From a virus, in IMG/VR virus record IMGVR_UViG_3300032144_000005: a DNA stretch of 64,000 nucleotides. The stretch is one strand, 5' to 3'. The notes below the pieces were generated by a model. That model was not told where the DNA came from, made no database searches, and worked only from the letters and a program-made list of their open reading frames with translations. The position numbers and the translations under genes are program-made. This document shows, in pieces, positions 10,301 through 23,433 of this stretch (positions within the stretch are counted from its first letter, which is position 1; each line of letters begins with the position of its first letter).

Positions 10301-13255
10301 CGCCTTACCCTCGTTCGTCACCCGCTTGAGCAGGCTGTCGGCGAGGAAGGCGACGTTCACCCCGGCCAGCTTGAGCGAGGTGATGAAATCGTAGAACTTG
10401 GACTGGGCGACCGGCAGCGTGATCGTGAAGGAGGCCGCCGTGCGCAGGGTCAGCTCCTGCACGGTCGGGCTGCCGGGGCTGAAGGACTTGATTAGGCTCT
10501 CGACCGCTGGGATGGATTCAACATCGGACATCTCCTCGACGATGGCCTTGGTATTGGCGCGCGAGTTACCCGTGACAGCGACGCCCTCGTCGGTGAAGGC
10601 GGCAATGTCGGCATCGCTAAGGGTTTCTCCATCCTCCAGCTTGTTCAGGGCCGCGAGAATCCCCTTCAGCCACACGACGTGGTCGGCCATCTTGCGCGCG
10701 GACATCGCGCGTGGGGATTCGCCCTCGTCGGCGATTTCCTCGGTCTCCTCTTCGCCCACGGGTACGCCGCGCGCCGGTCCCCCCGCCGACTCCTCGTCGC
10801 TCGCGGGTATATCAACGCTGGTGTCCTCCTCGACAATGGTGGCCTCGCCGCCGCCCGCGTCCTCGTCGATGTTGGTCTCGGTTTCCTCAGTGACATCCTC
10901 GCCGCCCACGTCCGTCTCGTCAGCCGTCCGCTCCTCGAAGAGCTGGACGGAACCCGACTGGACGGTGCGCTTGGTGCCCTTGACGTTGTCGGCTGCGGCG
11001 AGGCGCGCTTGCATCTCCGGCGACAGCGTCGCGCGGTCCTTGTAGAAGGCGTCGAAATACTGGGCCAGCTCGCGGTTGTTGCGCACGTCATCGACGCTGT
11101 CGAAGTTGATCGACAGGTCCTTCTCGTTGACGCCCTTGCCCGCGTCCCATTCGAGGTAGCCCAGCACGCGGTAGCGACCGTCGCCGCGCTGCTCCATCTT
11201 ATCCCACTCGGCGGTCTCCTTGCCGGTGACATTGAAGTCCGTGGTGCGATTGTTCTTCCCGGTGCGCTCGTGCTCCTTGGCGATGCGCTGCGAGCGGCCC
11301 ACGCGCAGCCCCTTGCCGGGCTTGCCGGGCAAAGCCTGTGAGTTGCGCCGGACGGTGCGCAGGTGGACCTTGCCGGTCTGGGTGTCTTCGATGAAGACCG
11401 CCTTGCGGGTCAGCTTGCCCGCGTTGCCACCATCGGCAGCGATCTCCATCCGGGTGAAGTTGTTGCCGTCCTCGGGCGTGAACATGTAGCCGCGAATCGG
11501 GGCCGGGATGCCTGAGAATACGGGCTCATCCGGCTTGACCGTCACGAGCGACGGCACCGAGTTGTCTGGGAAGTGAGCGAGGAAGACCTTTTCGGCCACC
11601 TTCGAGCTGTGGCCAGCCTCGGTGGCTTCCTTGAGGAAGGCCGTGCGCACCTCCTCGCGGCTGCGCTCCACCGGGCCGGTGAGGTACTTGGCGAGCAGGG
11701 TGCTCAGTGGCGGCTTGTCGCCCGTCGAGGGAGGAACCGAGGGCTTCACGGGGGCCGGGGCGGGCGCTTCACCTTCCGGCGCGAGGACCGGCGGCGGCGC
11801 GGGTGGCGCAACCACCGGGGCATTGCGCGCGGTGACGGCATCCGCCGCCTCGTTGACTTCGACCGGCGTGACGACCTTGGCGACCGGGATCTCCTCGTGG
11901 TCGGCCACAAGGCTGACGGCACCCTTGGTGTCGAGGGTTTGCTGATAGGCCGGGGTCGCAGGCGGAAGCGCGAGGGTCTGACGGGTCGGGCGGGATGCGC
12001 CGAGCTGCACCGGGCTGCCTTCGCCCAAGACGAAATTCGTGCTGCTGTCGCCGAGCTGGCGCGGGGCCGGGCGCGCGGGCCGGGTGACACCGGGCTGCGG
12101 CTCGCCACCCTCGCCCATGATGAAATTGGGATCGGGCGTACCAGCGGGACCGGGCAACGCGAGCTGTTCGGGCGGCGGCGGAAGCGCGAGGGTCTTGGGC
12201 TTGTAGCCCTCCTCGGACTCCTCCTTCTCGTTGCTCGGGGGCTGCGTGTTGATGAAGCCGGAAGCAGCACCGAAGCCCGCGCCAAGGACGCCGCCGCCAA
12301 CCATGGCTTCCGCAATGCGGTCCTTGATGGCGCTCGCCGAGAGCTGGCGCTTGTTGTTGAACTCCTCGGCGGCGATGGCGACGCCTTCCTGAAGTCCTTC
12401 GGTGAGACCCTCGCTAATGCCGCTCGCGGCCATGTTGCTGAGTGATCCCCAGACGCCGCCGCGCGCCAGAACGTCCTTCACCATCGTCGGGACGAACTTC
12501 CGCTCCACCGCCGGGAAGAGCTTATCCATGATCGGCAACTGGCCGATGTTCTCCAGCTTACCCGCGAGGGCGCCGCCACCGATGGCGCTCAGGATTCCGG
12601 TGCCGGATTCCTTGGCCTCCTCGTCCAGTCCGCCGTAGATGTCCGCCGTGTTCTGGACCGCGTTGGCAATGAACGAGGACTTCTCGGCGGCGGCTCGCGC
12701 CGCCGTACGCGCGGCAAGAGCTTCGAGACCTTCGGCGGCGGCGAGCCGTGCGGCTCGCGCGCCCACACCCACGCCAAGGCCCATCGGGATAGCCATCGAC
12801 GGTAGGTTCTCGCCGCCGATGCGCGCCGCATAGTTGAGGAAGTCGGAAGGGCCTTCGATGTCCCTGAAGCTCTGGACGCCGTAGGGGTCGCGCCTCGCCG
12901 CCGCCTCCTGTTCCTCTTGGGCGGCCTTCTTCGCGAACCAGTCACCAAGATCGCTGAAGGCATCAATCGGATAGACGAGCTTGTTGCTGCGCGCAGCCAG
13001 TTCGCCGACCTGATACAGGGTCTTCGGGAGGAAGTCAGCGATGCCGCTGCCAATCGCAGTCAGTCCCGTCTCCCACGGGCTGTCGCGCCGCTCGCGGCGC
13101 AAGCTCTGGTATTCTTCGTAGAACTCGGGGTCCGTGTCGAAGAGCTGCTTCTTGCCCTCGTTGACCACGCGGTCGCCGAGTTCGAGAATCAAAGACTCGT
13201 CGGAGAGATCACTCCCCTGACGAAGGATGCGATACCTGTCGAGGGTGGCGCTCAC
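4352..13255 (-). CDS. Giant internal virion/ejection protein of the polyvalent type, with zincin-like HExxH and ART-PolyVal-like domains
   Basis: 2967 aa at the large ejection-protein position. HEGAH lies at 10184-10198. LFQRWFGDW..SKVID..GEPRVVWHGT..F..F..GFHFG..FLNIRTP..GFDG..YIAFKPENVK at about 8670-9300 matches the ART-PolyVal pattern. Confidence 0.75.
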   Translation of the reverse strand: MSATLDRYRILRQGSDLSDESLILELGDRVVNEGKKQLFDTDPEFYEEYQSLRRERRDSPWETGLTAIGSGIADFLPKTLYQVGELAARSNKLVYPIDAFSDLGDWFAKKAAQEEQEAAARRDPYGVQSFRDIEGPSDFLNYAARIGGENLPSMAIPMGLGVGVGARAARLAAAEGLEALAARTAARAAAEKSSFIANAVQNTADIYGGLDEEAKESGTGILSAIGGGALAGKLENIGQLPIMDKLFPAVERKFVPTMVKDVLARGGVWGSLSNMAASGISEGLTEGLQEGVAIAAEEFNNKRQLSASAIKDRIAEAMVGGGVLGAGFGAASGFINTQPPSNEKEESEEGYKPKTLALPPPPEQLALPGPAGTPDPNFIMGEGGEPQPGVTRPARPAPRQLGDSSTNFVLGEGSPVQLGASRPTRQTLALPPATPAYQQTLDTKGAVSLVADHEEIPVAKVVTPVEVNEAADAVTARNAPVVAPPAPPPVLAPEGEAPAPAPVKPSVPPSTGDKPPLSTLLAKYLTGPVERSREEVRTAFLKEATEAGHSSKVAEKVFLAHFPDNSVPSLVTVKPDEPVFSGIPAPIRGYMFTPEDGNNFTRMEIAADGGNAGKLTRKAVFIEDTQTGKVHLRTVRRNSQALPGKPGKGLRVGRSQRIAKEHERTGKNNRTTDFNVTGKETAEWDKMEQRGDGRYRVLGYLEWDAGKGVNEKDLSINFDSVDDVRNNRELAQYFDAFYKDRATLSPEMQARLAAADNVKGTKRTVQSGSVQLFEERTADETDVGGEDVTEETETNIDEDAGGGEATIVEEDTSVDIPASDEESAGGPARGVPVGEEETEEIADEGESPRAMSARKMADHVVWLKGILAALNKLEDGETLSDADIAAFTDEGVAVTGNSRANTKAIVEEMSDVESIPAVESLIKSFSPGSPTVQELTLRTAASFTITLPVAQSKFYDFITSLKLAGVNVAFLADSLLKRVTNEGKARGVSLTDRDGRAFVGLSGNYMKGEITSDDVMALFHEGAHPFLRGLPEWTQRLYHQAISGLPWQSQAWISTGLGQDPRLIANTPYEQLTEPQKRIYDSITPEEMVKLRAVDPTTLAIERAVDHLAAFGISRTESRSLLSQIIRYIKGALLGVALELQKAIKGPNNVNPALARAYVENLFLQFINRDFAQSNGALAVSLRQWIGGEPTPTEKLDVFENVDGADQHFQYDPATGTKTPILPVTNTTEGQTLSMQEIIDHKNLDSRIKALTMRQIPMDVIPYLTGGIPWDKMTTEQQVGLAEEADRQLAAVELKRNAEGQLLAPNGQVSKLRESHWRIVRTPLFQRWFGDWMNDPAKASKVIDPETGEPRVVWHGTNKDFDTFKITADYGFHFGELMEAIKRVEGNNVRFTRGYFGETLTPPPGESWQEATYTTDFNGDKAHYNAVGVNFVPAFLNIRTPIKMTDGFWGDAKNIVELRNAGAIDEATADRAFAEKTLVGSVEIIKQALLDKGFDGAMYDNVAETNDTGTQTYIAFKPENVKTVTNRVFTPTERMQYTQRTAQDIQPTVSANTQFAVNNFLRTMIANLLMQPDIQRTISPRYLRNGQDTAEHLIFGRGEENTFSKKIQALKTQFTNAVDVVTKQPFPFDETARINDLAGGAKGSAQRQAVSSALIDAQKMETHVVREIGFMTKRKAELDKKVEKGNELTDAEEILLANLNSDILLFNRILNTPDVGLTAQVERLRGKLGTGFVFVMTEGAEYTVPPTPNAKASDMQKGTVPKGFMFSQAESEKMQKAIAKQKAWLLNEDNKKQGDLYDTILNQNRRMSEAAFYTVYSDQKRRLQKSAYDAMSNMLRGIGTPSAKALASRVYLLEAVLAEYIKPMDILGGKWSTAYTNAYKALKFDGTYDEFRQRYYNPLMLILMDIPDGTTDPLNRAISVFNALRPAKYKITGDGATAMRELARQSIAIDEELARIFEKEGLKVSDKALGSVGEGDREQARVRGLIRQGIFTGRVSPTESLALLIAKMNQTWQQTTDGPTMAKNAFDSWKISRAKFTENFEPFFSNETKRHFVEPLVYHNIPLFESPKTMSAGVTIYASHSNVRQAWETAKAASTGNEADLATFISELNRLEGGTAATEADVAGMTIAALAKMHSKADNLFNQRAKKADEGVHVIPKQMMESRDANDFPPEWVDVDLFDRGSNKGVIHSFAMNKAFGASGLSGTEFMVNYQALMHELAGMDEEYREYRKVMGLSAKQTKARMDADLPGDTRGSRKGRYEIARDAANHIQMLTGLRKNIAKLNDPHATHSGDARLGEELTGVAATFTLQGLRQAISQITEMFSPLWKYKFSPTGLKAVLNAVRGTGAEVVSSTLELIGAKHHFMAELARRTNRVGGVDPANFLNAQDMMNDFGTNNALASDDPLDRRTSRVTKWLTDKLRFTRSIADLQPADVAAAAVNKASRGKLDVNLSGLQGEQALAAKFRLFGMFNSINLWMLNGATISQYYTFKDMVMRGIEYINSSGNPAEFARKLIEGEMQLEGNDLGYNRKFLVLNDEAAWDFMKEAVGNKMALGSIEHMIADAWYRTRNNPQAPIITDEQYSRIRSLVVSEFQLSSTLTNTPLEARTNGIMKPFMTFITWPYSAMMRFPTLFQNAQNQYTATAITDGTIALMAGIIPLTMAASFAVDWSDEELLGKKQNIRDADVETLIPGVAPFIDPAATMERLARYGTAGLLSEVANGIINGDDTRGGGSFDSRIFILSQFQSIKQIASTLRHTGKMDYQSFFRPLMQVMGGNSVLQYSQMFNKMTGANNVESAFNERVSVGNYLRATGRDLKLQVIPSKSSGQGIPGKHTPYVARMELAVYQDNLGQFKDSFSKAVSAYAEEHPDEEDPQARVIASFKARHPLKRVFRVQPTEREYRSILENLNSHGSEAVSSSVQLFNKYLLKLGAKPTTGKKEKPGPKLKSLNLNLGLSSLNAANAAYASSFLD

Positions 13256-13261
13256 GGTGAG

Positions 13262-15154
13262 TTAGCGGTACGGCTGGTACATTCCGCTTTGGAAGAGAAG
13301 CTGGAGCAGGTAGTCCTCCTGAGAGGGTGCGCCCTGAGTTGAAACGGTCGGCATGTCGCCCGTGTACACGATGGGCAGGTCTTCCGTGTACACTGTCGGG
13401 GCCTGATAGCCCGGCGGAAGCCCGGCATCCAGATCGGAGGTGTACACCGTGGCGCCCTGCGGAGGCGTCTGCCGGAACACATCGCTCGCCAGCGCAGCGG
13501 CAATCGCAGCGCGCGAATTGGGAGCAGCCGGGAGACCACCGGAAGACCGGGGGAAGGCTTGTGCCGCCAGCATGGCGGCCTCCGCCCGGTTCTGCGGAAC
13601 GCGCGTGGAGACATTCGGCACGAAGCCGCCAGCGGGCAGTCCGGCATCCAGATCGGACGTGTACACGGTGGGCAGGCCGGAAGTCGGGAAGGACTGCCGG
13701 AAGATGTCAGCCGCAGCCGCAGCCGCCTGTCCACGATTGGGGGCGACGAACGGTGGCGTCCGCATCGAGGTGGCGCTCGCCGCCTTCAGCAGGCGCTGCG
13801 CGGCAGCTTGGCCCCGGTTCATCGGCGTGGCAGCAGGTGTGGAATCCTGCGGCAGGAAGTTGCCGGTGCGCATCCGTTCGGCAGCCGCAGCGCGACCACC
13901 AACGCCGGATGCCGGGATGACAGAAGGAGTCCGCTCGACAAGAGGAACGGCCAAGGCTTGCGCGCGGGCAGCGGCCTGCGCGAGACCTCGGTTGCCGGGG
14001 TTGGCCTGCGCCACCAGCGCCGCGATGCGGGCACGCTCGCGGGTCGCGGCAGCTTCCGGGCTCGCGGAGGCGATAGCCTCACGCTCGTTGGCCGCTCGGT
14101 TGAACGCAGCCATGCGCGAGGCTGCACCGGCACGCCCGCCAGCAGCGGGCAGGAAGGCGGAAGTATCCGTGACCTCTCCGCCGGGAACACGGGTGGATAC
14201 GGTCTGCACCACGGCGTTCGGGTCCAGCCCGCTGTCGAGATCCTTGTCAGCGCTGGGGACGCCGAACGCTTGCTCGACGGTTAGCGCCCCGCCGCCTGTG
14301 CGCGGGAGAAGTTCGTCGGCCCGCGCGGTGGCGGCCTTCATCTGGAAGCGCATCGCGCTCGGGCTCTGGCGCACCAGCTCGGTCAGGTCGCTGATGTTGC
14401 GCTGCATGCCCTTGATCTTGTCCTCGTCTGCTTCGTAGCGCTGACGGGAGAGCTGGCCTGCGAGAGTGTTGTAGGTGCCGACGGCCTGCGTTTCGGCAGC
14501 ACCCAGCTTGCGACGCTTCAGCTCGGCCTTCAGGTCTTCGAGCGTGTTGATGCCGGTGACCTCGCCGAGTTCCTCGCGCACATCCTCGGGAAGATTGGCG
14601 ATGGTCTCGGTCACAAGCGACGCCTTGTCGTTGGCGTTAAACTTCGAGTACGAATCGTAGAGCTTGTTCAGCTCGCTCTTCGCATTGTCGAGGCTCGTGG
14701 AAAGGCCCTTGGCGATGTCGTTCTCCAGACCGGCGATCTGGTCCGCATACCAGTCGATGTTCTGGGAAGTCGTATTCTCGACGCCTTCCTTCGCGGCGGG
14801 CGGTGTGCCGGTGCCGCCGAGCTGCGCGTAGATGCGCTTCAGCTCGCTCTGGGACTTGGACTCCAGCTCGGCCTTGCGGGCAGCGGCCTCAGCCTTCTGC
14901 TCGTCGAGGATGCGCGTGGTCTTCTCGCGCTCGATCTCACGGGCGTTCTCAAGGTTCCGCTCGTTCATCTGGTTCCTCATCCCGAACTCAAGGTAGGCGT
15001 CCTCGATCTTCTGCCGACGCGCGATCTCGCGCAGGCGCTCTTGGGCGCGCATCTGCTCGATCTCGACCTTGGGTGCGTTGATCCCGCTGATGAGCCCGGC
15101 GTTCGGCGCGAACAGGCCCTGCAGGAAGGCGGCGTTCTGGAGTGCGGTGGCCAT
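13262..15154 (-). CDS. Probable internal virion/ejection protein with repetitive C-terminal half
   Basis: Sits between the pilot-like and giant ejection genes. N-terminal half is coiled-coil; C-terminal half has Ala/Pro-rich NRGQAAA and TVYTSDLDAGLP repeats. Confidence 0.6.
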   Translation of the reverse strand: MATALQNAAFLQGLFAPNAGLISGINAPKVEIEQMRAQERLREIARRQKIEDAYLEFGMRNQMNERNLENAREIEREKTTRILDEQKAEAAARKAELESKSQSELKRIYAQLGGTGTPPAAKEGVENTTSQNIDWYADQIAGLENDIAKGLSTSLDNAKSELNKLYDSYSKFNANDKASLVTETIANLPEDVREELGEVTGINTLEDLKAELKRRKLGAAETQAVGTYNTLAGQLSRQRYEADEDKIKGMQRNISDLTELVRQSPSAMRFQMKAATARADELLPRTGGGALTVEQAFGVPSADKDLDSGLDPNAVVQTVSTRVPGGEVTDTSAFLPAAGGRAGAASRMAAFNRAANEREAIASASPEAAATRERARIAALVAQANPGNRGLAQAAARAQALAVPLVERTPSVIPASGVGGRAAAAERMRTGNFLPQDSTPAATPMNRGQAAAQRLLKAASATSMRTPPFVAPNRGQAAAAAADIFRQSFPTSGLPTVYTSDLDAGLPAGGFVPNVSTRVPQNRAEAAMLAAQAFPRSSGGLPAAPNSRAAIAAALASDVFRQTPPQGATVYTSDLDAGLPPGYQAPTVYTEDLPIVYTGDMPTVSTQGAPSQEDYLLQLLFQSGMYQPYR

Positions 15155-15157
15155 GGC

Positions 15158-16732
15158 TTAGCTCGTGCCGCGACGGAACGGCAGCGTGGAGGTGTTTGAA
15201 TTACCCAGCGGATTGACGTTGGTGCCGCCGCCGGTGTTCAGGCCCTTGATGGCGTTGATAAGCTGGTTGTTCTGGTAGTAGCTGGAGAGCCCTTGGCCGA
15301 GACTGCCGAGTGCGCTGCCCGCAATCTGGCCGCCGCTGATCGGCTGCTCGTACTGGGCAGCGGTGTAGCCCGGCGTACCGGGCTGGTTCTGCCGGAAGAA
15401 CTGGAGGGTGCCGAGCAGCGCGTTGATGTCGTTGTAGGGCGCCTGCGCGGCGAGCTGGTCGAGCTGGAGCTTCGTCTGGGCGAGGCCGCCACCCGCGTTC
15501 AGATTGGCGAGGCGGGTCTGGACGTCGTTGCTGAACAGCGCGGCGTTGTCCGTGGTGTTCTGGAGGAGGGCACTCGCCTCGGCGGCGCGGGCGTTGGAGT
15601 CCAAGAACCCGGTGAGCGCCTTGAGATACTCGGAGTTCACGCCGAAGCGGCCCGTGGCGTCCGCCTCGTTGATGCCATACAGGCGGTTCGCCTGCTCAAC
15701 CCCGGCCTGCGCCCGCGCGCCGGACGCCTGCTGGTAGCCTTGCGCGAGGGTTCGGGCGCGCATGAGGGCGTCGCCCGAACCAGAACCAACGAAGCCAGCG
15801 AGGGCGCGCTGGGCGCTCTGGCGCTGGAGTTCGTTCTCGGTCGCCTGCTTGGCAGCGTTGGCGAAAGTGTCGGCCTGCAGCATGGCGGCATCGTAGATGC
15901 CTTGGCTGCCCGTGGTGCGCGTCTGCAGGATGCGGTCGAGATCGGACAACTGGCCTTGGTTCAGCTCGCCGTACTTCTTGCGCAGCTCGTCGATCTTCAT
16001 CTGCTCCGTGCCCGCGAGCTGGCTGCGCGCGGCATTGATCTCGTCCTGCTTGGCCTGCTGCTGGGCGAGGAACTGGCCCTGATAGAGGGCGTCGAGCGTC
16101 TGCGGGCCGTAGTCGAGCAGGCGCTGATACTGCGGCGGAAGCACCCAGCTCTCGGTGCTGGTCGTGCCGCCACCGCCGCCACCCGTCGTGCCACCGCCGC
16201 CGTAGGTGTTGGTGACAAAGGTCTGGAAGTCGCCCATCGAGTCGGGATTGGCGGCAAGGTGATCGCGGAGCCACTGAACCGGGGTCCGGTCATCCTCGCC
16301 CGGCGGGCGGTTGGCGTCGCTCCACGCCATGTGGCGGTTGTACTCGGCGGCAAAGCCGGGGTCCGAGTCGAAGTACGCCTGAGCCACGGCGTCATCGGAG
16401 AGCGACATCTGCGGGCTGACGTTGCCCGGACTCATGCTCGGGCTGATCCCAAGGATTCGATTCAGCAGAACCTGCTCAAGGCCCTGACCGTAGGCGGTGA
16501 AGCCGAGCGGCAGGACGGTGTTGACGGCGCTGCCTGCACCACCGGGAACACCAGCGAGTCCACCGGGATTGATGCCGCGAGACAGGAGGTACTGGTTCCA
16601 GTTGGCCTCGTTCGCCGCTGCGGCCTGTTCGGCGTTCGCGGTGTTCTGCGCTTGCTGGGCCTTCTTCGCGGCATTTCCCGCGATGAGCGACCCGCCTATA
16701 CCGATAACTGCGCCTGTGATTGCTGCGGACAT
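15158..16732 (-). CDS. Probable DNA pilot/ejection protein
   Basis: N-terminus MSAAITGAVIGIGGSLIAGNAAKKAQQAQ and C-terminus GGQIAGSALGSLGQGLSSY, with Q/A/G-rich composition typical of podoviral ejection proteins. Confidence 0.65.
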   Translation of the reverse strand: MSAAITGAVIGIGGSLIAGNAAKKAQQAQNTANAEQAAAANEANWNQYLLSRGINPGGLAGVPGGAGSAVNTVLPLGFTAYGQGLEQVLLNRILGISPSMSPGNVSPQMSLSDDAVAQAYFDSDPGFAAEYNRHMAWSDANRPPGEDDRTPVQWLRDHLAANPDSMGDFQTFVTNTYGGGGTTGGGGGGTTSTESWVLPPQYQRLLDYGPQTLDALYQGQFLAQQQAKQDEINAARSQLAGTEQMKIDELRKKYGELNQGQLSDLDRILQTRTTGSQGIYDAAMLQADTFANAAKQATENELQRQSAQRALAGFVGSGSGDALMRARTLAQGYQQASGARAQAGVEQANRLYGINEADATGRFGVNSEYLKALTGFLDSNARAAEASALLQNTTDNAALFSNDVQTRLANLNAGGGLAQTKLQLDQLAAQAPYNDINALLGTLQFFRQNQPGTPGYTAAQYEQPISGGQIAGSALGSLGQGLSSYYQNNQLINAIKGLNTGGGTNVNPLGNSNTSTLPFRRGTS

Positions 16733-17589
16733 TTTGCGTCGTGGGTCAGTAGCGCATCGAGTTCCAGCGCTGATTTTTTTGCAATCCCATAATCAACTGT
16801 GAGTTCCTCTCCCAGTCCGATCTGGCGCAGCGAAAACATGCCGATGCTCAGGTCCTCTGGGATGCAGCGAAATTCGCAATTCGGCGTGGCCGAATGATTC
16901 GTGTAGCGACCGAGAGGCGTGCGGCACATACCGATCCGCGCGGGCGCAATGCTGACTCCGTCATCGAACTCCATCGCGGCAAACATGCCGATGCCATGGA
17001 TGGATGACTTGTCCGGCCTGACGCGCACGTTCCACGGATAGGCGAGCGGGATCAGGTCATCGCTACCGCAGGTCATCTCCTCGACCTGCTGCTCCGTGTA
17101 GCCAAGCAGCGCGACGGTGCGTGAGAAGCTCTCGTGGTCCTTGACGATCTTGAGTGCCACCTCACCGGCTTTCATCCGGCGCTCGAAGTCGAGCTGGGCC
17201 GGGCTCTTGATGAGCAACTGCTCCTCCAGTGTGGCGATGTCGATCTCGTTGGTCGGGTGAATGGTGAGCCAGCGCGAGTCCTCGTGAATATATCCCACCT
17301 TGCGGTCGAACGCCTTGCCGACGAAGACGTCGCCACCTTTCATCTCGCGGACGTGGCCAGCGATCACCACCGACACGCGCCCGCTGAGAACGACGTTCAT
17401 GCAATCGTGCCGATGGGACATGCCGATAGCCAGCGTGCCCTCCTTGAAGCGAGCCTCGCGCATGTAGATACCGGGCGCGAAATGATGCACGACCTCCGGC
17501 AGCGTCTGCTCGTACTCCAGCATCTTCGCCTCCAGCGCCTCGATCTGCTCGGGCGTCACATAGCGGGACAGCATTAGTTCGAGGTCCAT
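16696..17589 (-). CDS. Cupin-like domain fused to SET-domain lysine methyltransferase
   Basis: N-terminal HHFAPGIYMRE..GTLAIGMSHRH..NVVLSG is cupin-like. C-terminal SSIHGIGMFA, RYTNHSATPNC and GEELTVDY are the three canonical SET motifs. Confidence 0.85.
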   Translation of the reverse strand: MDLELMLSRYVTPEQIEALEAKMLEYEQTLPEVVHHFAPGIYMREARFKEGTLAIGMSHRHDCMNVVLSGRVSVVIAGHVREMKGGDVFVGKAFDRKVGYIHEDSRWLTIHPTNEIDIATLEEQLLIKSPAQLDFERRMKAGEVALKIVKDHESFSRTVALLGYTEQQVEEMTCGSDDLIPLAYPWNVRVRPDKSSIHGIGMFAAMEFDDGVSIAPARIGMCRTPLGRYTNHSATPNCEFRCIPEDLSIGMFSLRQIGLGEELTVDYGIAKKSALELDALLTHDAKCPQQSQAQLSV

Positions 17590-19421
17590 TAGAGTACGGT
17601 GATAAATCCGCCGGAAGCCACGCTCGTACCGGCAGCAGACTTAACGCGGATGGAGTAGGTGTGATTGCCAGCAGGAGGCGTGTCGTTGGCCGTCAGCTCA
17701 ATCGGGATGGATTGACCGGATGCAAGGACGACGCCGCCGCCGTTGCCGACAGAAGCGATAGGATCGGGCGAGCCGTCGCGGTGAATACCGAGGTAGCAGG
17801 TGGTCTGGGCACCACTGGCGTTGGCCAGAGACGCGCCCGAGAATCGGATGGTACGGGCAGTTCCATCACAAAATGCCGTCACATTAAGCGGCGGGGAAAG
17901 CTCGTGATAGACGATGTCGGAGTAGGAGCCGCCGCCGCTGTTTTGCGCGATGTACGCCGGGCCGGGCGGCAGGTTCTGAATCCACTGCGTGCCCGTCCAC
18001 CGGATGTACGCGCCGCCCGGATCACCCACGCGGAACTGGTGGTAGCCGCCTTCGTAGCCCAAGAAGATGCCGACGCCGCTCATCACGCCGGTCACGCCGT
18101 TGGAGATGATGGTGCCTGTGTTGCTGATCGTCAGGCTGCCGCCCGAGATGTTGCCCGCGATACTCAGGTTTGATCCGTCGAACGACAGCTTGTTGCCGAG
18201 CGAGAGCTGCCCGGCGCTGTTGACGTAGAACGGGGTGTCGCTGTTGTTGTAGTTGCCCGCTCCGATGAACACCTTGCCCGCCGTGCTGACGGTGAGCGTG
18301 TCGGCCAGCTTCACATTGCCACCCGAGATATTGAACATCACGACACCCGTGGTGCCGTTGTAGATTTTGAAGTTGGCGGCGACGAACGTGACGTCGGAGA
18401 TATTACCGCCGGGGCCGGAAGCCGACGTGATATTCATGCCGGTCACTACGTTGCCAGCAGCGACAGTCAGGGTGTACTTGCCAGCAAGGTTTCCGTCGGC
18501 AGCAGCACGGGTGTTCGACTCCTGTGTCACCGCTGCCGCCAGCACGCCGTCCTGCTGGTACACCCACGATGAACCGTTCCAGAACTTGTACCGATTCTGG
18601 TCGCCGGTATCCAGCCACAGGTCGTTCAGTTGCGGTGTCGCCGGAGCTGTGTTCTGAACAAGGATCTTGGTGCCGATGCTGGACGTGACTGAACTGATCT
18701 GGGTGCCAAGCGCATTGTCCGCGTTCACGCGAGCGGTCTGCTCATTCGTGATGTTCGTCTGCAGCGTGGTATCGGCGGCTTGGTAGTTGGCGTTGACGGT
18801 CGAAATTTGCGTCGTGAGAACCGAGTCAGCGTTCACGCGGGCTGTCTGCTCGTTCGTGATATTACCCTGCAGCACGGCGTCCGCTGCGATGTAGTCGGCT
18901 GTGACTGTCGTGATCTGAGAAGCTAGCGCGGAGTCGGCGTTGGTGCGCGCCGTGGTCTCGGTGGTGATATTCGCCTGCAGCACGGCGTCCGCTGCCTGAT
19001 ACCCGGTCAGCACCGCATTGATCTGGGTGGCCAGCGTGCCGTCCGCGTTGGCGCGCACGATGGCCTCGTTGGTGATCGCAGCCACGACGACGCCATCAGG
19101 GTTCTCCACCCACGCGAGACCGTCCCAGAACTTGTACTTGCCGCCGTCGCTCAGGTCGATCCACAGGTCGTTGATCGACGGGTTGGCCGGTGCCACGCTG
19201 CTGACCGAGATTTTATTCTTAACCCCAATCGTCGCGACGATGGTGCTGACATCGAAGTTCAGCGAGTCACTGATCTGGCCGATGCCGGTCTGCAGGTCGG
19301 TCTGGTAGCGCTTCACGCGCAGCCACCATTCGCGCAGCTCCTTGAGCGGCGGGTCGGCGATGAGCGCTGGCGACGGCAGGACGCCGAAGACACTCGGGCG
19401 TTTGTTCGGGAATGTGGTCAC
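17589..19421 (-). CDS. Tail protein resembling the coiled-coil/C-terminal part of host-specificity protein J
   Basis: 36-aa repeats ITNEQTARVNAD..L.TQI..V, two AP..P..NDLW.D....KY/RY.FW.G..W modules, and a GKYTLTVAAGNVVTGMNI..FVAANFKI segment. GTG start overlaps the upstream TGA. Confidence 0.65.
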   Translation of the reverse strand: MTTFPNKRPSVFGVLPSPALIADPPLKELREWWLRVKRYQTDLQTGIGQISDSLNFDVSTIVATIGVKNKISVSSVAPANPSINDLWIDLSDGGKYKFWDGLAWVENPDGVVVAAITNEAIVRANADGTLATQINAVLTGYQAADAVLQANITTETTARTNADSALASQITTVTADYIAADAVLQGNITNEQTARVNADSVLTTQISTVNANYQAADTTLQTNITNEQTARVNADNALGTQISSVTSSIGTKILVQNTAPATPQLNDLWLDTGDQNRYKFWNGSSWVYQQDGVLAAAVTQESNTRAAADGNLAGKYTLTVAAGNVVTGMNITSASGPGGNISDVTFVAANFKIYNGTTGVVMFNISGGNVKLADTLTVSTAGKVFIGAGNYNNSDTPFYVNSAGQLSLGNKLSFDGSNLSIAGNISGGSLTISNTGTIISNGVTGVMSGVGIFLGYEGGYHQFRVGDPGGAYIRWTGTQWIQNLPPGPAYIAQNSGGGSYSDIVYHELSPPLNVTAFCDGTARTIRFSGASLANASGAQTTCYLGIHRDGSPDPIASVGNGGGVVLASGQSIPIELTANDTPPAGNHTYSIRVKSAAGTSVASGGFITVL

Positions 19422-21301
19422 ACCATGCGGGTCACCGACCGCGTGCCGACGACGTCGTACTCGGCGAGATAGCCGGTGAGTGAAGGTTGCTCAACCGCAG
19501 CGGAGTCGATGTCGACCCGCATCTCGAAACGGTGATAGATGCCGCGCTGCCACATGGGAACAATGGTGTCGCCGCCGGGAGTCGGCACGATCTGGGTGGT
19601 GCCCTGCGTGTCAACAGCAGCGACGTCCTTCTGGTAGAAGGAAGTGACGGTGAGCGGGAACGCGCCGCTCACGGAATTATACAGCGGGACGAAGGTGCGA
19701 ATATCCTTCTCGTTGAATGAGTCGTTCATCCACAGGAGCCCCGTGTGCAGGTCGGCGCTCCAGTTGGCACTGTTGCGCTGCATGATCGTTAGCTCGCGCG
19801 AGGTGCGACCGTACACGTTGATCATCCCGTTCGCCGTGCCCATGATGAACCACGACTCGGACGGGTCGCCGAGCTGGCCAGCGAGCGGCTTGCGCACCGT
19901 GGCGGCGGATCGGAACTGCCAGTCGTTGTTGATCGTCGAGACCGTGTTATAGAGGTACGAGTAGCAGAGGGTCGTGTACTGGCCCACGCCGAACGGCAGC
20001 ACGAAGAAGATCTCCGAGGTCACGCCGTTGTCCACGGCATAGACCGACTTCAGGTCTGTGACATCGTAGTCCTTGCTGAAGAACTCGGTGAACGCGCACT
20101 TGAATAGCGCCTCGTCGATTGATGGCTCCAGTGAGCCCAGCTCGTATTTGTAGAAGGCGGTCGCTCCAGCGTACAGGTGGAACTGGCCGCGCACATTGAC
20201 CAGTGTATGCGGAAACTTGAGGCCGCGCTCGCCTTGGTAGGTGCGGTCGAACTGGAACGGAAACTCGATGTTGCCCGTGTACACGCCGACGAACAGGGAG
20301 AACGGGCGGTACACCACGAGCCGGTTCTGGAGCGGCATCATTGCCATGATGGCGGAGCCGTCATCCTGAATGTCGTAGTAGCCGACCACTGATCCGATGG
20401 CGTCGGTGTCGCTCATCGGCGTATTGGAGACCGTGGCCCCAAGTGGCGAGAGTAGCACGGCGGTCGTGCCCGCGATGGACACAATGTTGGTGACAAGGTT
20501 GCTGCCGAGCGTGCCGCCACCGACGATAGTCACTTCGTCGCCCGGCTGGAACGAGGCCATCGGCCAGTCGAGCGTGACCGACGTTGACCCCGAGGTGCCG
20601 CTGACGTTCACCGTCGCCGCCCAGTCGGTCGGGTCGCTGACGTTCGACCAGATGATGCGGTACTGGGTGCGGCTCGTGTTGGTGGCAGGCGACGGCACGA
20701 GTCCGTACGGGTCGCCGCTGTTCATCAGCGTGGACATGTAGTCCGAGTTCACCTCGGTAATGTCGCCGAACATGATGAAGCCGGAGTATTCGGTCATCAC
20801 GCCCACGCTGGCGACGCCGCGCTCGCGCAGCTCGTAGAGCGGGGTGACGGACGCATCGCCCACGCGCCAAGACACCGGCAGGTCCACACCGTTGTTGAAC
20901 ACCGCGTAACCGTTCAACTGCTCCATGTCCCAGCGCCGGATTCCGGCGGTCTGGAAACCGGAGCCGATCTGCACCCACAGCCCGGTGTCGTAGTCGAAGT
21001 ACCGGATCGTGCTGCCGACGACGGCCACGACCACCGTCTTGCCCGCCGGGCTGTTCACCTCGGCCAGAAGCAGGACCTCCTGACCTAGTCCGGTGAACGA
21101 TTGCAGCGCGGCGGCAAAGCCGGGGTTCGGCTGCCACAGGCCCCAGCCCTCGCGCACCACCATCGAGTCCAGCCGACGGCGCCACCCGCTGGCCACACGG
21201 AAGTCGTGTGGCGCGATGGAGTCGAAGGAGAGGTCGTCGCAGAGCGAGCCTCCCGTGACGTACTTGGCCTCAAGGGCACCAAATGGACGCTTGTAGGGCA
21301 T
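19418..21301 (-). CDS. Probable tail nozzle/head-closure beta-propeller protein (P22 gp10/T7 gp12-like position)
   Basis: 627 aa, beta-rich with WD/YD-like blades. Start reassigned to the ATG overlapping the upstream TGA (TGATG). Assignment is from synteny after the adaptor. Confidence 0.55.
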   Translation of the reverse strand: MPYKRPFGALEAKYVTGGSLCDDLSFDSIAPHDFRVASGWRRRLDSMVVREGWGLWQPNPGFAAALQSFTGLGQEVLLLAEVNSPAGKTVVVAVVGSTIRYFDYDTGLWVQIGSGFQTAGIRRWDMEQLNGYAVFNNGVDLPVSWRVGDASVTPLYELRERGVASVGVMTEYSGFIMFGDITEVNSDYMSTLMNSGDPYGLVPSPATNTSRTQYRIIWSNVSDPTDWAATVNVSGTSGSTSVTLDWPMASFQPGDEVTIVGGGTLGSNLVTNIVSIAGTTAVLLSPLGATVSNTPMSDTDAIGSVVGYYDIQDDGSAIMAMMPLQNRLVVYRPFSLFVGVYTGNIEFPFQFDRTYQGERGLKFPHTLVNVRGQFHLYAGATAFYKYELGSLEPSIDEALFKCAFTEFFSKDYDVTDLKSVYAVDNGVTSEIFFVLPFGVGQYTTLCYSYLYNTVSTINNDWQFRSAATVRKPLAGQLGDPSESWFIMGTANGMINVYGRTSRELTIMQRNSANWSADLHTGLLWMNDSFNEKDIRTFVPLYNSVSGAFPLTVTSFYQKDVAAVDTQGTTQIVPTPGGDTIVPMWQRGIYHRFEMRVDIDSAAVEQPSLTGYLAEYDVVGTRSVTRMV

Positions 21302-22380
21302 CAGGGCGGAGAGACTCGGCCAAGGACTGTGCTCCGGCGGCGAGTGCAATCCACCCACAGCATGCGGACACCGCGCGCATAGAGGGCGAGGTGCTGCGAA
21401 GCGTTGCGCGAGTCGGCGTTGAGGGTTTGTTCGATGTTGCCACGAATGTAGTGCGCCAGCGGCTCATGCGTGGGGAAGTCGAAGGTGACGTCGTCGGCGT
21501 CGAGGAAGTCCTGCTTGAGCCCGTTGTACTGGACGCGGACCTGCAGGTCGGTATCGGTCGGCTTGAGCGCCGGGTACACGTACATCTTCCGACCCGTCGG
21601 ATCGACTGTGTAGCAATGCGAATGACCGGGCACCTTGCGCTCGGTCAGCTCCGGGTTGTTGAGCCAGTTGAGCGCACCGATAGGAGTCCAGCCGACGGTG
21701 TTCAGGAACTTAAACGTCGCCGTGCCGAGCACTTCGTCCTTGCCGTCCATCGACAGGAGTCCGCCACCAACCACCGACACCGTGCCGGGGACTACGCAGT
21801 GATAGATGCGACCGTTCGAGATCACCTTGTCGTTGGCGAGATATGCCTGCGCCGCGAGCGCTGGATAGAAGCGGCCAATCTCCACGCTGAGCAGCTCAGG
21901 GTTCGAGAGCACCGACAGGTCGATGAACGAGGCCATGCCGACATTGGTGACCTGCGCGTTGGTGTAGTACGAGTAGTTGCCGATCTGGTAGCACATCACC
22001 TTGCGCTGGAGGTCCACGCAGCCCGCCTTGAGCAGCGCGTCGAAGATGACCTTCATGGCGTCGAGGTCATCCATTGCCTCCTGAATCCACTTGTCCACGA
22101 CGGCAGCAATGGCGGTGCGCTGTGAGTCCACCGTGATGCGCACGAGCACCTCTGGCTTCATGACGGCGAACGACACCGTGACGAGCGTGCCAGCCAGCCC
22201 GACCTTGTGCTCGTTCCACGAGTTGAAGTACGACTTCGAGCGCTCAAGGTCTTGGTTCACCTCGCGCTCGATCTTGTACTTCACGTAGTTCGCCACGGCG
22301 TCGTACTGCATCTTGAGCATCTCTGCCCCGGCGTCGTAGAACGCCTGCACGCCCAGTCGGAGTTGTGCGAAGGTGGCCAT
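21301..22380 (-). CDS. Probable head-tail adaptor/tail tubular protein A
   Basis: Starts MATFAQLRLGV, has central KMYVYP and C-terminal PLAHYIRG..LYA. Size and position precede the nozzle. Based on synteny only. Confidence 0.5.
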   Translation of the reverse strand: MATFAQLRLGVQAFYDAGAEMLKMQYDAVANYVKYKIEREVNQDLERSKSYFNSWNEHKVGLAGTLVTVSFAVMKPEVLVRITVDSQRTAIAAVVDKWIQEAMDDLDAMKVIFDALLKAGCVDLQRKVMCYQIGNYSYYTNAQVTNVGMASFIDLSVLSNPELLSVEIGRFYPALAAQAYLANDKVISNGRIYHCVVPGTVSVVGGGLLSMDGKDEVLGTATFKFLNTVGWTPIGALNWLNNPELTERKVPGHSHCYTVDPTGRKMYVYPALKPTDTDLQVRVQYNGLKQDFLDADDVTFDFPTHEPLAHYIRGNIEQTLNADSRNASQHLALYARGVRMLWVDCTRRRSTVLGRVSPP

Positions 22381-23109: not shown

Positions 23110-23433
23110 TTAATTCCTTTTTGCGAAGCCGCTCCGGTGGCGACCCTTCTCTACACAATCGCGCGTGTTTTCAGAGGCCGTTCCTAGCCACAGGTGGTCG
23201 GGGTGGATGCAGAGCGGCGTGTCGCACTCGTGGCAAACCACCATGCCATCAGGTATCGGGCCGTGCAGAAGTTCATATACCACGCGGTGGCAAAGATGGG
23301 TGCGGCCTTCGTGGCGAATCTGACCGTAGCCCCTTTTTGAGCGCAGTCCGGTCCAGATCAAGCACTCGCCATCGACCTGACATTCATCGGCAAGTCGATG
23401 ACCAACAGGCTCAGTTAGTCGTGGCATCACCAT
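23110..23433 (-). mobile_element. Free-standing HNH homing endonuclease
   Basis: CLIWTG..GYGQI..HRVVYEL.HGPIPDGMVVCHECDTPLCIHPDHLWLGTASEN; lower GC3 than neighbours. Confidence 0.9.

What the first reader, a model, noticed from the sequence alone, without database searches (positions are those of the whole stretch)
16696..17589. Cupin-SET methyltransferase fusion inside the virion ejection module
Seen: complete SET motifs (GxG, RYTNHS..PNC, ELTVDY) fused to a His-containing cupin, with stop/start overlaps to the tail and pilot genes. Known: SET domains are SAM-dependent lysine methyltransferases and are uncommon in phages; this slot in T7-like phages holds a small modifying or assembly protein. 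Inference: it may methylate virion or ejection proteins during assembly, or be injected to modify host proteins.
Basis: partly seen in the sequence, partly recalled or inferred. Interest (0 to 1): 0.7.

Follow-up and report, generated by a model that had tools for sequence, protein, structure and literature searches.

The report
Phage cupin plus mini-SET methyltransferase
A short-tailed soil phage encodes, just ahead of the proteins it injects with its DNA, a small barrel (cupin) domain fused to a stripped-down but intact-looking SET-type protein-lysine methyltransferase; the family is large, annotated in databases but unstudied, and its target is unknown.

Summary
ORF 16696-17589 encodes a 297-aa protein: a cupin barrel (res 28-124), a helical linker, and a SET domain (res 182-270). 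The GIG, RYTNHS..PNC and ELTVDY motifs are present. Pfam SET scores E 5e-10. The fold matches are Z 13.5 (MLL1 SET) and about 11.8 (cupins).

The SET is unusually short. It lacks the roughly 35-residue SET-I insert, yet N231, H232, N237, E262 and Y267 are invariant in 71 homologues sharing 29-47% identity.

Hundreds of fusion clusters exist, including Acinetobacter prophages that NCBI labels "SET domain-containing protein-lysine N-methyltransferase". Six clusters have the reversed order, SET-cupin. Cupin-only relatives are about as common and interleave with fusions on the cupin tree. So the SET half is often absent but never degenerate.

The gene always sits directly upstream of the first ejection or internal-virion protein, which is the T7 gp13 / P22 gp14 slot. 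A T7 gp13 model made here has a GNAT acetyltransferase fold.

My best reading is an active lysine methyltransferase acting on co-expressed ejection proteins. Activity and target are untested. I found no paper on it. This scan has described the same family in at least 19 other genomes.

The parts
16696..17589 (-). Cupin-mini-SET gene, 297 aa (P0001)
   Evidence: ORF list and translation. Full-length match to phrog_34170, E 8e-52. AF2 model with pLDDT 91.6.
17509..17589 (-). N-terminal helix (res 1-27) that travels with the cupin; conserved IExLE..ML motif
   Evidence: Alignments A1/A2. Helix 13-23 in the model. In the reversed-order proteins this helix precedes the cupin.
17218..17508 (-). Cupin (double-stranded beta-helix) domain, res 28-124
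   Evidence: Foldseek and VIA matches to Cupin_2 / KdgF / ppnP / CENP-C cupins, Z about 11-11.8. Homologous to stand-alone phage proteins phrog_24280 and phrog_12032 and to RSB3 ORF39 (hhalign 99.6%).
17047..17217 (-). Helical linker / pre-SET region, res 125-181 (DRxDF...GxTEE..V...D178 motif)
   Evidence: Helices 130-140, 147-161 and 166-174 in the model. In SET-cupin permutants this segment stays N-terminal of the SET domain.
16780..17046 (-). Minimal SET domain, res 182-270: GIG 199-201, RYTNHS..PN 228-237, ELTVDY 262-267; no SET-I insert
   Evidence: Pfam SET E 5e-10. PDB profile hits. Fold Z 13.5 to the MLL1 SET domain. Invariant S195, G201, R223, G227, N231, H232, N237, E262 and Y267 in 71 sequences.
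16696..16779 (-). C-terminal helix and low-confidence tail (res 271-297) plus stop; overlaps the start of the next gene
   Evidence: Helix 267-285 and pLDDT <50 for 289-297. Sequence.
15158..16732 (-). First ejection/internal-virion protein candidate (524 aa, P0074): Gly/Ala-rich hydrophobic N-terminus, then a conserved Lys motif (NAAKKA)
   Evidence: Translation. The N-terminus aligns with downstream genes of five other cupin-SET loci. It also resembles P22_gp7-type and T7 gp14-type proteins.
13262..15154 (-). Second large protein of the ejection block (630 aa), no family hit
   Evidence: ORF list. No Pfam, PHROG or NCBIfam hit. A gene of 420-650 aa sits at the same position in L008-L011.
4352..13255 (-). 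Giant 2967-aa polyvalent protein (ART-PolyVal domain), presumed ejected
   Evidence: Pfam PF18760, E 9e-10. The equivalent giant gene follows cupin-SET in L008 (InPase + ART-PolyVal), L010 and L011. In VvAW1 the equivalent is the 'DarB-like' gp01.
17589..19421 (-). Upstream 610-aa tail-associated protein, translationally coupled (TAATG)
   Evidence: phrog_37064 tail fiber protein, E 6e-13. Junction sequence.
19418..21358 (-). 646-aa virion structural protein
   Evidence: phrog_3287, E 3e-24.

Best explanation
The gene encodes a late, morphogenesis-operon enzyme with two modules.

The cupin, with its N-terminal helix, is the conserved occupant of the slot just upstream of the ejection/internal-core genes in many short-tailed phages. 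That slot holds gp13 in T7 and gp14 in P22. I infer that it docks the protein onto the ejection proteins or the assembling particle.

The helical linker plus mini-SET is an optional catalytic add-on: a SAM-dependent protein-lysine methyltransferase. I infer that it methylates one or more of the co-translated ejection/internal virion proteins before they are packaged. The first candidate is the conserved Lys just after the hydrophobic N-terminus of the first ejection protein.

Shown here: the folds, intact and invariant SET cofactor and catalytic motifs, conserved synteny, translational coupling, and co-divergence of the two domains.

Inferred: catalytic activity, the docking role of the cupin, and the identity of the substrate.
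For: Fold and motifs:
- Pfam SET scores E 5e-10.
- Fold matches are Z 13.5 to the MLL1 SET domain and Z about 11.8 to cupins.
- N231, H232, N237, E262, Y267, G201 and S195 are invariant in 71 homologues with 29-47% identity.

Selection and coupling of the two domains:
- The SET half is as conserved as the cupin half (mean pairwise identity 0.48 against 0.49).
- The two halves co-diverge: r 0.69, with 0 of 500 permutations reaching that value.
- The domains occur fused in both orders. Of the top 150 SET hits, 104 are cupin-SET and 6 are SET-cupin. This argues that they work together.

Synteny:
- In this window, in five metagenomic loci and in phages P26218, PH1 and MW202744, the gene directly precedes a protein with a hydrophobic N-terminus, then 1-2 large proteins, and often a giant polyvalent protein.
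- A truncated SET-only derivative still directly precedes a PF25688 P22_gp7 gene.
- Cupin-only homologues sit in the T7 gp13 slot (RSB3) and the P22 gp14 slot (VvAW1, VPMS1).

Operon structure:
- The start and stop overlap the neighbouring genes.
- No promoter or terminator signal above the shuffled expectation lies inside the block.

Parallel with T7:
- The T7 gp13 family, modelled here at pLDDT 93, has a GNAT fold. All top-50 hits are GNATs, and the joint-best is the protein lysine acetyltransferase PAT, Z 12.1.
- An ESM Atlas cluster of 317-aa viral proteins combines this cupin (TM 0.78 over 120 residues) with PF11090 in 20% of its members.
Against: - No biochemical, proteomic or expression data exist for any member. 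I found no paper.
- The SET lacks the SET-I insert, which forms one wall of the substrate-lysine channel in every characterised SET enzyme. Nine residues stand where MLL1 has 44. Activity therefore cannot be assumed from motifs alone.
- Cupin-only phages are at least as common and carry the same conserved Lys motif in their first ejection protein. Methylation is therefore dispensable for the basic slot function, and the Lys motif does not track SET presence.
- The cupin shows no detectable sequence homology to T7 gp13 or P22 gp14, so the slot analogy is positional only.
- The T7 gp13 family lacks a canonical GNAT R/Q-x-x-G-x-G/A motif in its consensus, so the 'modifying enzyme slot' parallel may be fold-deep only.
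Confidence: 0.4

Rival explanations
1. The protein is itself packaged and ejected with the ejection proteins. It then methylates host proteins early in infection, for example nucleoid-associated proteins, the translation apparatus or defence proteins. This would resemble how chlorovirus vSET or bacterial SET effectors act on host chromatin. The cupin would be the packaging or delivery handle.
For: - The gene is embedded in a block whose other products are presumed to be ejected, including a giant polyvalent protein with an ART domain.
- The closest characterised minimal viral SET, vSET, is packaged and acts on host proteins (established knowledge; sequence match E 1.2e-8).
- The bacterial SET effector LegAS4 is among the fold matches (8swi_A, Z 10.1).
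Against: - There is no evidence that any cupin or cupin-SET protein is in virions. The 'short tail fiber' and 'tail fiber adhesin' labels are propagated annotations with no data behind them.
- To my knowledge T7 gp13 and P22 gp14, the positional analogues, are described as assembly factors rather than major virion components. I did not check this here.
- Cupin-only phages manage without the enzyme.
Confidence: 0.25
2. The mini-SET is a pseudoenzyme or binding module. Having lost SET-I, it no longer methylates. It instead serves as a lysine/peptide- or SAM-binding chaperone domain that helps the cupin handle the ejection proteins.
For: - The SET-I wall of the lysine channel is missing, and no post-SET Zn cluster is present in the sequence.
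- The domain is dispensable in many lineages.
Against: - The residues that bind SAM and perform catalysis (N231, H232, Y267) are strictly invariant across 71 sequences with 29-47% identity, along with the GxG and PN motifs. This is hard to explain without cofactor chemistry.
- New family-specific invariants (S195, R223, T224, G227, R228) lie where SET-I is missing and could replace it.
Confidence: 0.15
3. The enzyme methylates lysines of outer virion proteins (tail, nozzle, fibres) or of many phage proteins. This would shield them from host attack on lysines, such as proteases or ubiquitin-like tagging defences, rather than acting on the ejection proteins specifically.
For: - The gene is translationally coupled to the upstream tail-associated gene as well.
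- Phage structural proteins can be methylated during infection (PMC13288928).
Against: - The conserved neighbour across very different phages is the downstream ejection protein. The upstream tail genes vary.
- There is no direct evidence.
Confidence: 0.1

Closest known systems
PBCV-1 vSET (A612L; PDB 1n3j, 3kma), the 119-aa chlorovirus H3K27 methyltransferase
   Same: It is a viral, minimal SET domain without pre- or post-SET Zn modules. The NHS..PN and E..Y motifs align (profile E 1.2e-8). One GenBank record already annotates a homologue by this structure (MW202744).
   Different: The phage SET core (about 89 aa, res 182-270) is shorter still and lacks the SET-I segment that vSET keeps. It is fused to a cupin, sits in a bacteriophage ejection operon, and has no histone substrate available. 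Whether it dimerises like vSET was not tested.
MLL1/KMT2A SET domain (PDB 7w6a_C, 5f5e)
   Same: It is the best sequence and fold match: E 5e-12, Z 13.5, rmsd 2.1, 34% identity over 87 residues. Y267 aligns with the catalytic Tyr of the ELTYDY motif.
   Different: MLL1 has 44 residues (SET-I) between the two conserved blocks where the phage protein has 9. MLL1 also has a post-SET and needs WRAD partners.
Stand-alone phage cupins annotated 'short tail fiber' or 'tail fiber adhesin' (phrog_12032, phrog_24280; Ralstonia RSB3 ORF39, RSK1, Vibrio VvAW1 gp04, VPMS1 MS_018; CDD PHA00672)
   Same: They are homologous to res 10-135 (E 1e-27; hhalign 99.6%). They occupy the same slot directly upstream of the first ejection/internal virion protein.
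   Different: They have no SET domain. Their tail-fibre names rest on no experiment that I could find.
T7 gp13 (PF11090, 'probable scaffold protein')
   Same: It occupies the same gene slot, between tail tubular protein B and internal virion proteins gp14-16. It is small. A model made here has a protein-modifying-enzyme fold, GNAT. An Atlas cluster joins this cupin to PF11090.
   Different: There is no sequence homology to either half (hhalign probability 0.2). The fold is GNAT, not cupin or SET. The chemistry, if any, would be acyl transfer rather than methyl transfer.
P22 gp14 (PF11039/DUF2824, 'head morphogenesis')
   Same: It occupies the same slot, directly upstream of ejection proteins gp7, gp20 and gp16.
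   Different: There is no detectable homology. Its fold was not determined here.
Bacterial SET effectors (Legionella LegAS4/RomA, PDB 8swi)
   Same: They are prokaryote-encoded SET enzymes delivered into another cell. LegAS4 is a fold match at Z 10.1.
   Different: They are much larger, carry full SET-I and post-SET regions, target eukaryotic histones, and are delivered by a secretion system rather than a virion.

Membership tests
SET-domain protein lysine methyltransferases (PF00856) | Match to the family HMM above the curated cutoff | tested here: met
   40.2 bits against a cutoff of 22.4, E 5e-10. Only profile positions 62-105 align.
SET-domain protein lysine methyltransferases (PF00856) | SET beta-fold | tested here: met
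   The AF2 model (pLDDT about 97 over the domain) matches MLL1, EZH2, SMYD1, SET8 and SET7/9 at Z 11.7-13.5. This is a predicted structure, not a solved one.
SET-domain protein lysine methyltransferases (PF00856) | N-SET GxG motif and the NHS..PN cofactor-binding motif | tested here: met
   G199-I-G201 and R228-YTNHSATPN-237 are present. G201, N231, H232 and N237 are invariant in 71 of 71 sequences.
SET-domain protein lysine methyltransferases (PF00856) | Catalytic Tyr of the ELxxDY motif | tested here: met
   E262 and Y267 are invariant in 71 of 71 sequences. Y267 aligns with the last Tyr of MLL1 ELTYDY.
SET-domain protein lysine methyltransferases (PF00856) | SET-I insert forming one wall of the substrate-lysine channel | tested here: not met
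   There are 9 residues between the conserved blocks, against 44 in MLL1. Only 87 of 125 MLL1 residues are alignable.
SET-domain protein lysine methyltransferases (PF00856) | SAM binding and methyl transfer to lysine | not testable with these tools
   This needs biochemistry.
Cupin superfamily (Cupin_2-like) | Double-stranded beta-helix barrel | tested here: met
   Res 28-124 match many small cupins: Foldseek E about 5e-7, VIA Z 11-11.8.
Cupin superfamily (Cupin_2-like) | Pfam cupin HMM match | tested here: inconclusive
   P0001 has no cupin Pfam hit at E<=0.01. Two cupin-only homologues carry PF07883, and related Atlas clusters carry it in 15-68% of members.
Cupin superfamily (Cupin_2-like) | Metal-binding motif 1, G(X)5HXH(X)3-4E(X)6G | tested here: inconclusive
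   The spacing is preserved: G51-(X)5-57-X-59-(X)3-63-(X)6-G70. The family consensus is H57, Q/H59 and H/C63. This protein has M57, H59 and C63. Position 57 is K or A in 46 of 120 cupin-only relatives.
T7 gp13 family (PF11090) | Sequence homology to gp13 | tested here: not met
   hhalign probability 0.2%. P0001 has no PF11090 hit.
T7 gp13 family (PF11090) | Gene position between tail tube genes and internal virion protein genes | tested here: met
   The cupin homologue RSB3 ORF39 occupies it in an autographivirus. The window gene lies between tail-associated and ejection-type genes.
P22 gp14 family (PF11039) | Sequence homology to gp14 | tested here: not met
   hhalign probability 0.5%.
Phage tail fibre / adhesin (the PHROG names of the cupin half) | Fibrous or receptor-binding architecture, or experimental location in the tail | tested here: not met
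   The fold is a compact cupin barrel, not a fibre. The one paper I checked models the cupin-only homologue of Alteromonas phage R8W as a 'putative short tail fibre' without virion data.

The most novel reading that the evidence does not exclude
The gene slot just upstream of the ejection/internal-core genes of short-tailed phages may be a general 'protein-lysine modification' slot. It holds a GNAT-fold gp13 in T7, cupin-SET here, and cupin-Gp13 fusions elsewhere. Under this reading the first ejection protein is covalently modified, by methylation or acylation, on a conserved Lys next to its hydrophobic N-terminus before packaging. The modification would tune its packaging, membrane insertion, or resistance to host proteases and lysine-tagging defences.
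Probability: 0.15. Interest if true: 0.8.

Novelty: new variant of a known kind. Interest (0 to 1): 0.5.

Why it matters
Protein-lysine methylation by SET enzymes is a hallmark of eukaryotic chromatin. It is barely explored in bacteriophages.

This family would be the smallest SET scaffold known, because it has no SET-I insert. That makes it useful for understanding the minimal requirements of SET catalysis.

Its fixed position in front of the ejection proteins points to covalent modification of the injected proteins, an unstudied step of podophage assembly or entry. Its fusion to a conserved 'gp13-slot' cupin in both domain orders points the same way.

The GNAT fold predicted here for T7 gp13 suggests the idea could be tested even in the best-studied podophage.

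Cultured systems exist: Rhodoferax phage P26218, Pseudoalteromonas phage PH1 and Acinetobacter prophages.

Tried and rejected
- Complex prediction of cupin-SET (alignment A2) + SAM + the downstream 524-aa protein (A5): score 0.01, 'no answer'. This is neither support nor evidence against binding.
- hhalign of the family against T7 gp13 and P22 gp14: no homology. hhalign of T7 gp13 against P22 gp14: none.
- NCBIfam: no hit for the protein or its neighbours beyond noise.
- The search for related loci with the cupin alignment A3 failed, because no stretch was conserved enough. The same tool with the gp13 alignment A6 returned only close T7-like phages. The cupin-Gp13 fusion seen at Atlas cluster level could therefore not be confirmed on a sequence.
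- Stand-alone mini-SET contexts: P0323 is not on record. P0312 turned out to be a truncated derivative that keeps the end of the cupin and the linker. Some of the 34 'SET-only' representatives may therefore be fragments.
- Literature searches for a phage SET/cupin protein, for Acinetobacter prophage SET, and within the polyvalent-protein paper found nothing relevant. Searches for virion proteomics of cupin-only homologues found no data.
- A JmjC-type demethylase reading of the cupin was considered and dropped. All fold matches are small Cupin_2-type barrels or CENP-C-type dimerisation cupins, and none is JmjC.
- Monophyly of the fusions on the cupin tree: disfavoured but not rejected (AU p 0.067).
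Full report
**What is there.** Coordinates 16696-17589 are one minus-strand ORF of 297 aa (P0001).
- Its ATG shares one base with the TAA of the upstream 610-aa gene (TAATG).
- Its last 37 nt overlap the start of the downstream 524-aa gene.
- No promoter or terminator signal above the shuffled expectation lies inside the 4-23.5 kb minus-strand block. The gene is therefore part of one tightly packed late operon.

**Domains.** Pfam finds a SET domain (E 5e-10, 40.2 bits against a cutoff of 22.4), but only for the C-terminal half of the profile.
- PHROGs gives a full-length family of unknown function (phrog_34170, E 8e-52).
- For residues 14-135 alone it gives two families of about 160-aa proteins, named 'tail fiber adhesin' and 'short tail fiber protein'.
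- An AlphaFold2 model built on 71 homologues is confident (pLDDT 91.6). Its pTM of 0.58 indicates two independently placed domains.
- Residues 28-124 match small cupins: KdgF, Cupin_2 proteins, ppnP and CENP-C cupins (Foldseek E about 5e-7; VIA Z 11-11.8).
- Residues 182-269 match SET domains. The best is MLL1 (7w6a_C): Z 13.5, rmsd 2.1 Å, 87 residues, 34% identity.
- Residues 130-175 are helices.

**State of the SET domain.** In 71 fusion homologues sharing 29-47% identity with the query, these residues are invariant: S195, G201, R223, G227, N231, H232, N237, E262 and Y267. G199, T224, R228 and P236 are nearly invariant.
- These cover the GxG, NHS..PN and E..Y motifs that bind SAM and line the lysine channel in characterised SET enzymes (established knowledge).
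- Y267 aligns with the last Tyr of MLL1 ELTYDY.
- The domain is truncated compared with every solved SET. The two conserved blocks are 9 residues apart where MLL1 has 44, so the SET-I insert is missing.
- There is no Cys-rich post-SET.
- The SET half evolves no faster than the cupin half (mean pairwise identity 0.48 against 0.49). The two halves co-diverge: r 0.69, with 0 of 500 permutations as high.
- I read this as an enzyme under purifying selection. The missing SET-I means activity must be shown, not assumed.

**State of the cupin.** The canonical motif-1 spacing is kept: G51-(X)5-57-X-59-(X)3-63-(X)6-G70.
- In the family these positions are H, H/Q and H/C.
- Position 57 is Lys or Ala in 46 of 120 cupin-only relatives.
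- The window protein has M57, H59 and C63.
- Metal binding is therefore undecided. Many of the fold matches are non-enzymatic dimerisation cupins.

**Distribution and architecture.** Word-indexed searches found at least 191 cupin-only clusters of 66-235 aa and at least 194 longer clusters.
- The top 120 of the longer clusters are all 275-310-aa cupin-SET proteins.
- They include prophage genes of Acinetobacter indicus, A. pseudolwoffii and A. wanghuae. NCBI names these 'SET domain-containing protein-lysine N-methyltransferase'.
- An exhaustive HMM search with the SET half gave 78 representatives at E<1e-30.
- The top 150 break down as follows:
  - 104 cupin-SET.
  - 6 with the reverse order: linker-SET, then helix-cupin.
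  - 34 small SET-only proteins.
  - 1 tandem SET-SET.
  - 1 Peptidase_S24-SET.
- One SET-only case is a truncated derivative that still keeps the end of the cupin, so some small forms may be remnants or fragments.
- Among isolated phages, about 66 records carry the cupin. Only Rhodoferax P26218, Pseudoalteromonas PH1, zth2-2 and three Manatee Spring genomes carry the fusion.
- On trees of the cupin domain, the fusion label needs 18 changes (191 rows, FastTree; 6 forced by well-supported branches) or 11 changes (80 rows, IQ-TREE; 3 forced).
- Holding all fusions together costs 65.5 lnL units, AU p 0.067.
- The SET half is therefore repeatedly present or absent among relatives, although a single origin is not formally rejected.

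**Context.** The order in the window (minus strand) is:
- an adaptor-like 359-aa gene,
- a 646-aa virion protein,
- a 610-aa tail-associated protein,
- cupin-SET,
- a 524-aa protein with a Gly/Ala-rich hydrophobic N-terminus,
- a 630-aa protein,
- a 2967-aa polyvalent protein with an ART-PolyVal domain,
- a 1153-aa fibre with an S74 chaperone domain.

The same core order recurs in five metagenomic loci and in P26218, PH1 and MW202744: cupin(-SET), then a protein with a hydrophobic N-terminus, then 1-2 large proteins, then often a giant protein.
- Cupin-only homologues occupy the P22 gp14 slot in VvAW1 and VPMS1 (P22 map).
- In the autographivirus RSB3 the cupin-only homologue occupies the T7 gp13 slot.
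- The first downstream protein has the same kind of N-terminus everywhere, including T7 gp14: MS-x-(I/V)A-x-A..., followed by a short Lys-containing motif.
- That Lys is a concrete candidate target. However, it is equally conserved in cupin-only phages, so it does not discriminate.

**The slot in T7.** The cupin has no sequence homology to T7 gp13 or P22 gp14.
- Every one of the top 50 hits in both fold searches is a GNAT acyltransferase.
- The joint-best are the protein lysine acetyltransferase PAT GNAT domain (4u5y_A: Z 12.1, rmsd 2.5, 127 of 138 residues) and PA4794.
- The only two, sub-significant, sequence hits of T7 gp13 in the PDB are also GNATs (E 0.39).
- The family consensus does not show a canonical acetyl-CoA motif, so this is a fold statement only.
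- Separately, an ESM Atlas cluster of 317-aa viral proteins contains this cupin (TM 0.78 over 120 residues), and 20% of its members carry PF11090.
- I could not retrieve a sequence to confirm that fusion.

**Interpretation.** The best-supported reading is that the cupin is the conserved slot protein, and the linker plus mini-SET is an optional catalytic add-on that methylates lysines of co-expressed proteins. The most likely targets are the ejection or internal virion proteins it is always encoded next to. Rivals are:
- an injected effector acting on host proteins,
- a non-catalytic SET remnant,
- a broader shielding of virion lysines.

A predicted-complex test with the downstream protein gave no verdict (see Tried and rejected).

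**Novelty.** The protein family is present and named in public databases, but I found no study of it.
- This scan has already described the same family in at least 19 other genomes with similar conclusions.
- This window adds another, rather divergent, member: nearest relative 48% identity by BLASTP, Met at cupin position 57, and Gly instead of Arg after the catalytic Tyr.
- I rate it as a new variant of a known kind (a SET lysine methyltransferase) and of moderate interest.

Noticed in passing
L018:1501-1914 (T7 gene 13; also L007:3308-3724): The T7 gp13 family, which Pfam calls a 'probable scaffold protein', gives a confident model (pLDDT 93). Its top 50 structural matches are all GNAT acyltransferases, and the joint-best is a protein lysine acetyltransferase (Z 12.1). 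The consensus lacks a canonical acetyl-CoA motif.
   Followed up: partly
P0388, P0407, P0419, P0444, P0447, P0449 (L014:329-1177 for P0407): Six representative clusters carry the same two modules in the reverse order: linker-SET first, then helix-cupin. In L014 the gene is still followed by a gene for a protein with a hydrophobic N-terminus, of the ejection type.
   Followed up: partly
window 15158-16732 (-), first about 30 codons; compare L003, L005, L007, L008-L014, L016, L017: The first ejection/internal protein of very different podophages, including T7 gp14, shares an N-terminus: MS-x-(I/V)A-x-A, a Gly/Ala-rich hydrophobic stretch, then a Lys-containing motif (A/S-x-K). This holds whether or not the upstream gene has a SET domain.
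   Followed up: partly
ESM Atlas cluster, 317 aa (row 6): A viral protein cluster whose representative contains this cupin (TM 0.78 over 120 residues), and 20% of whose members hit PF11090 Phage_T7_Gp13. This is a possible cupin-GNAT fusion in the same slot. No sequence was retrieved.
   Followed up: partly
P0321 (210 aa), P0311 (271 aa), P0371 (545 aa): Other architectures of the mini-SET exist: Peptidase_S24 + SET, tandem SET-SET, and a 270-aa N-terminal extension in front of cupin-SET.
   Followed up: partly
window 4352-13255 (-): A 2967-aa polyvalent protein with an ART-PolyVal domain (res 1346-1529, E 9e-10) lies downstream in the same operon. Equivalent giants in related loci carry InPase + ART-PolyVal.
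   Followed up: partly
window 23110-23433 (-): An HNH endonuclease gene (PF13392, E 3e-13) is inserted among the head/structural genes.
   Followed up: no
window 17413-17421 (-), residues 57-59 of P0001: This protein has Met at the first canonical cupin metal-ligand position, where 64 of 71 fusion relatives have His. The putative site then reads M57, H59, C63 and H102. I cannot say whether this is meaningful.
   Followed up: no
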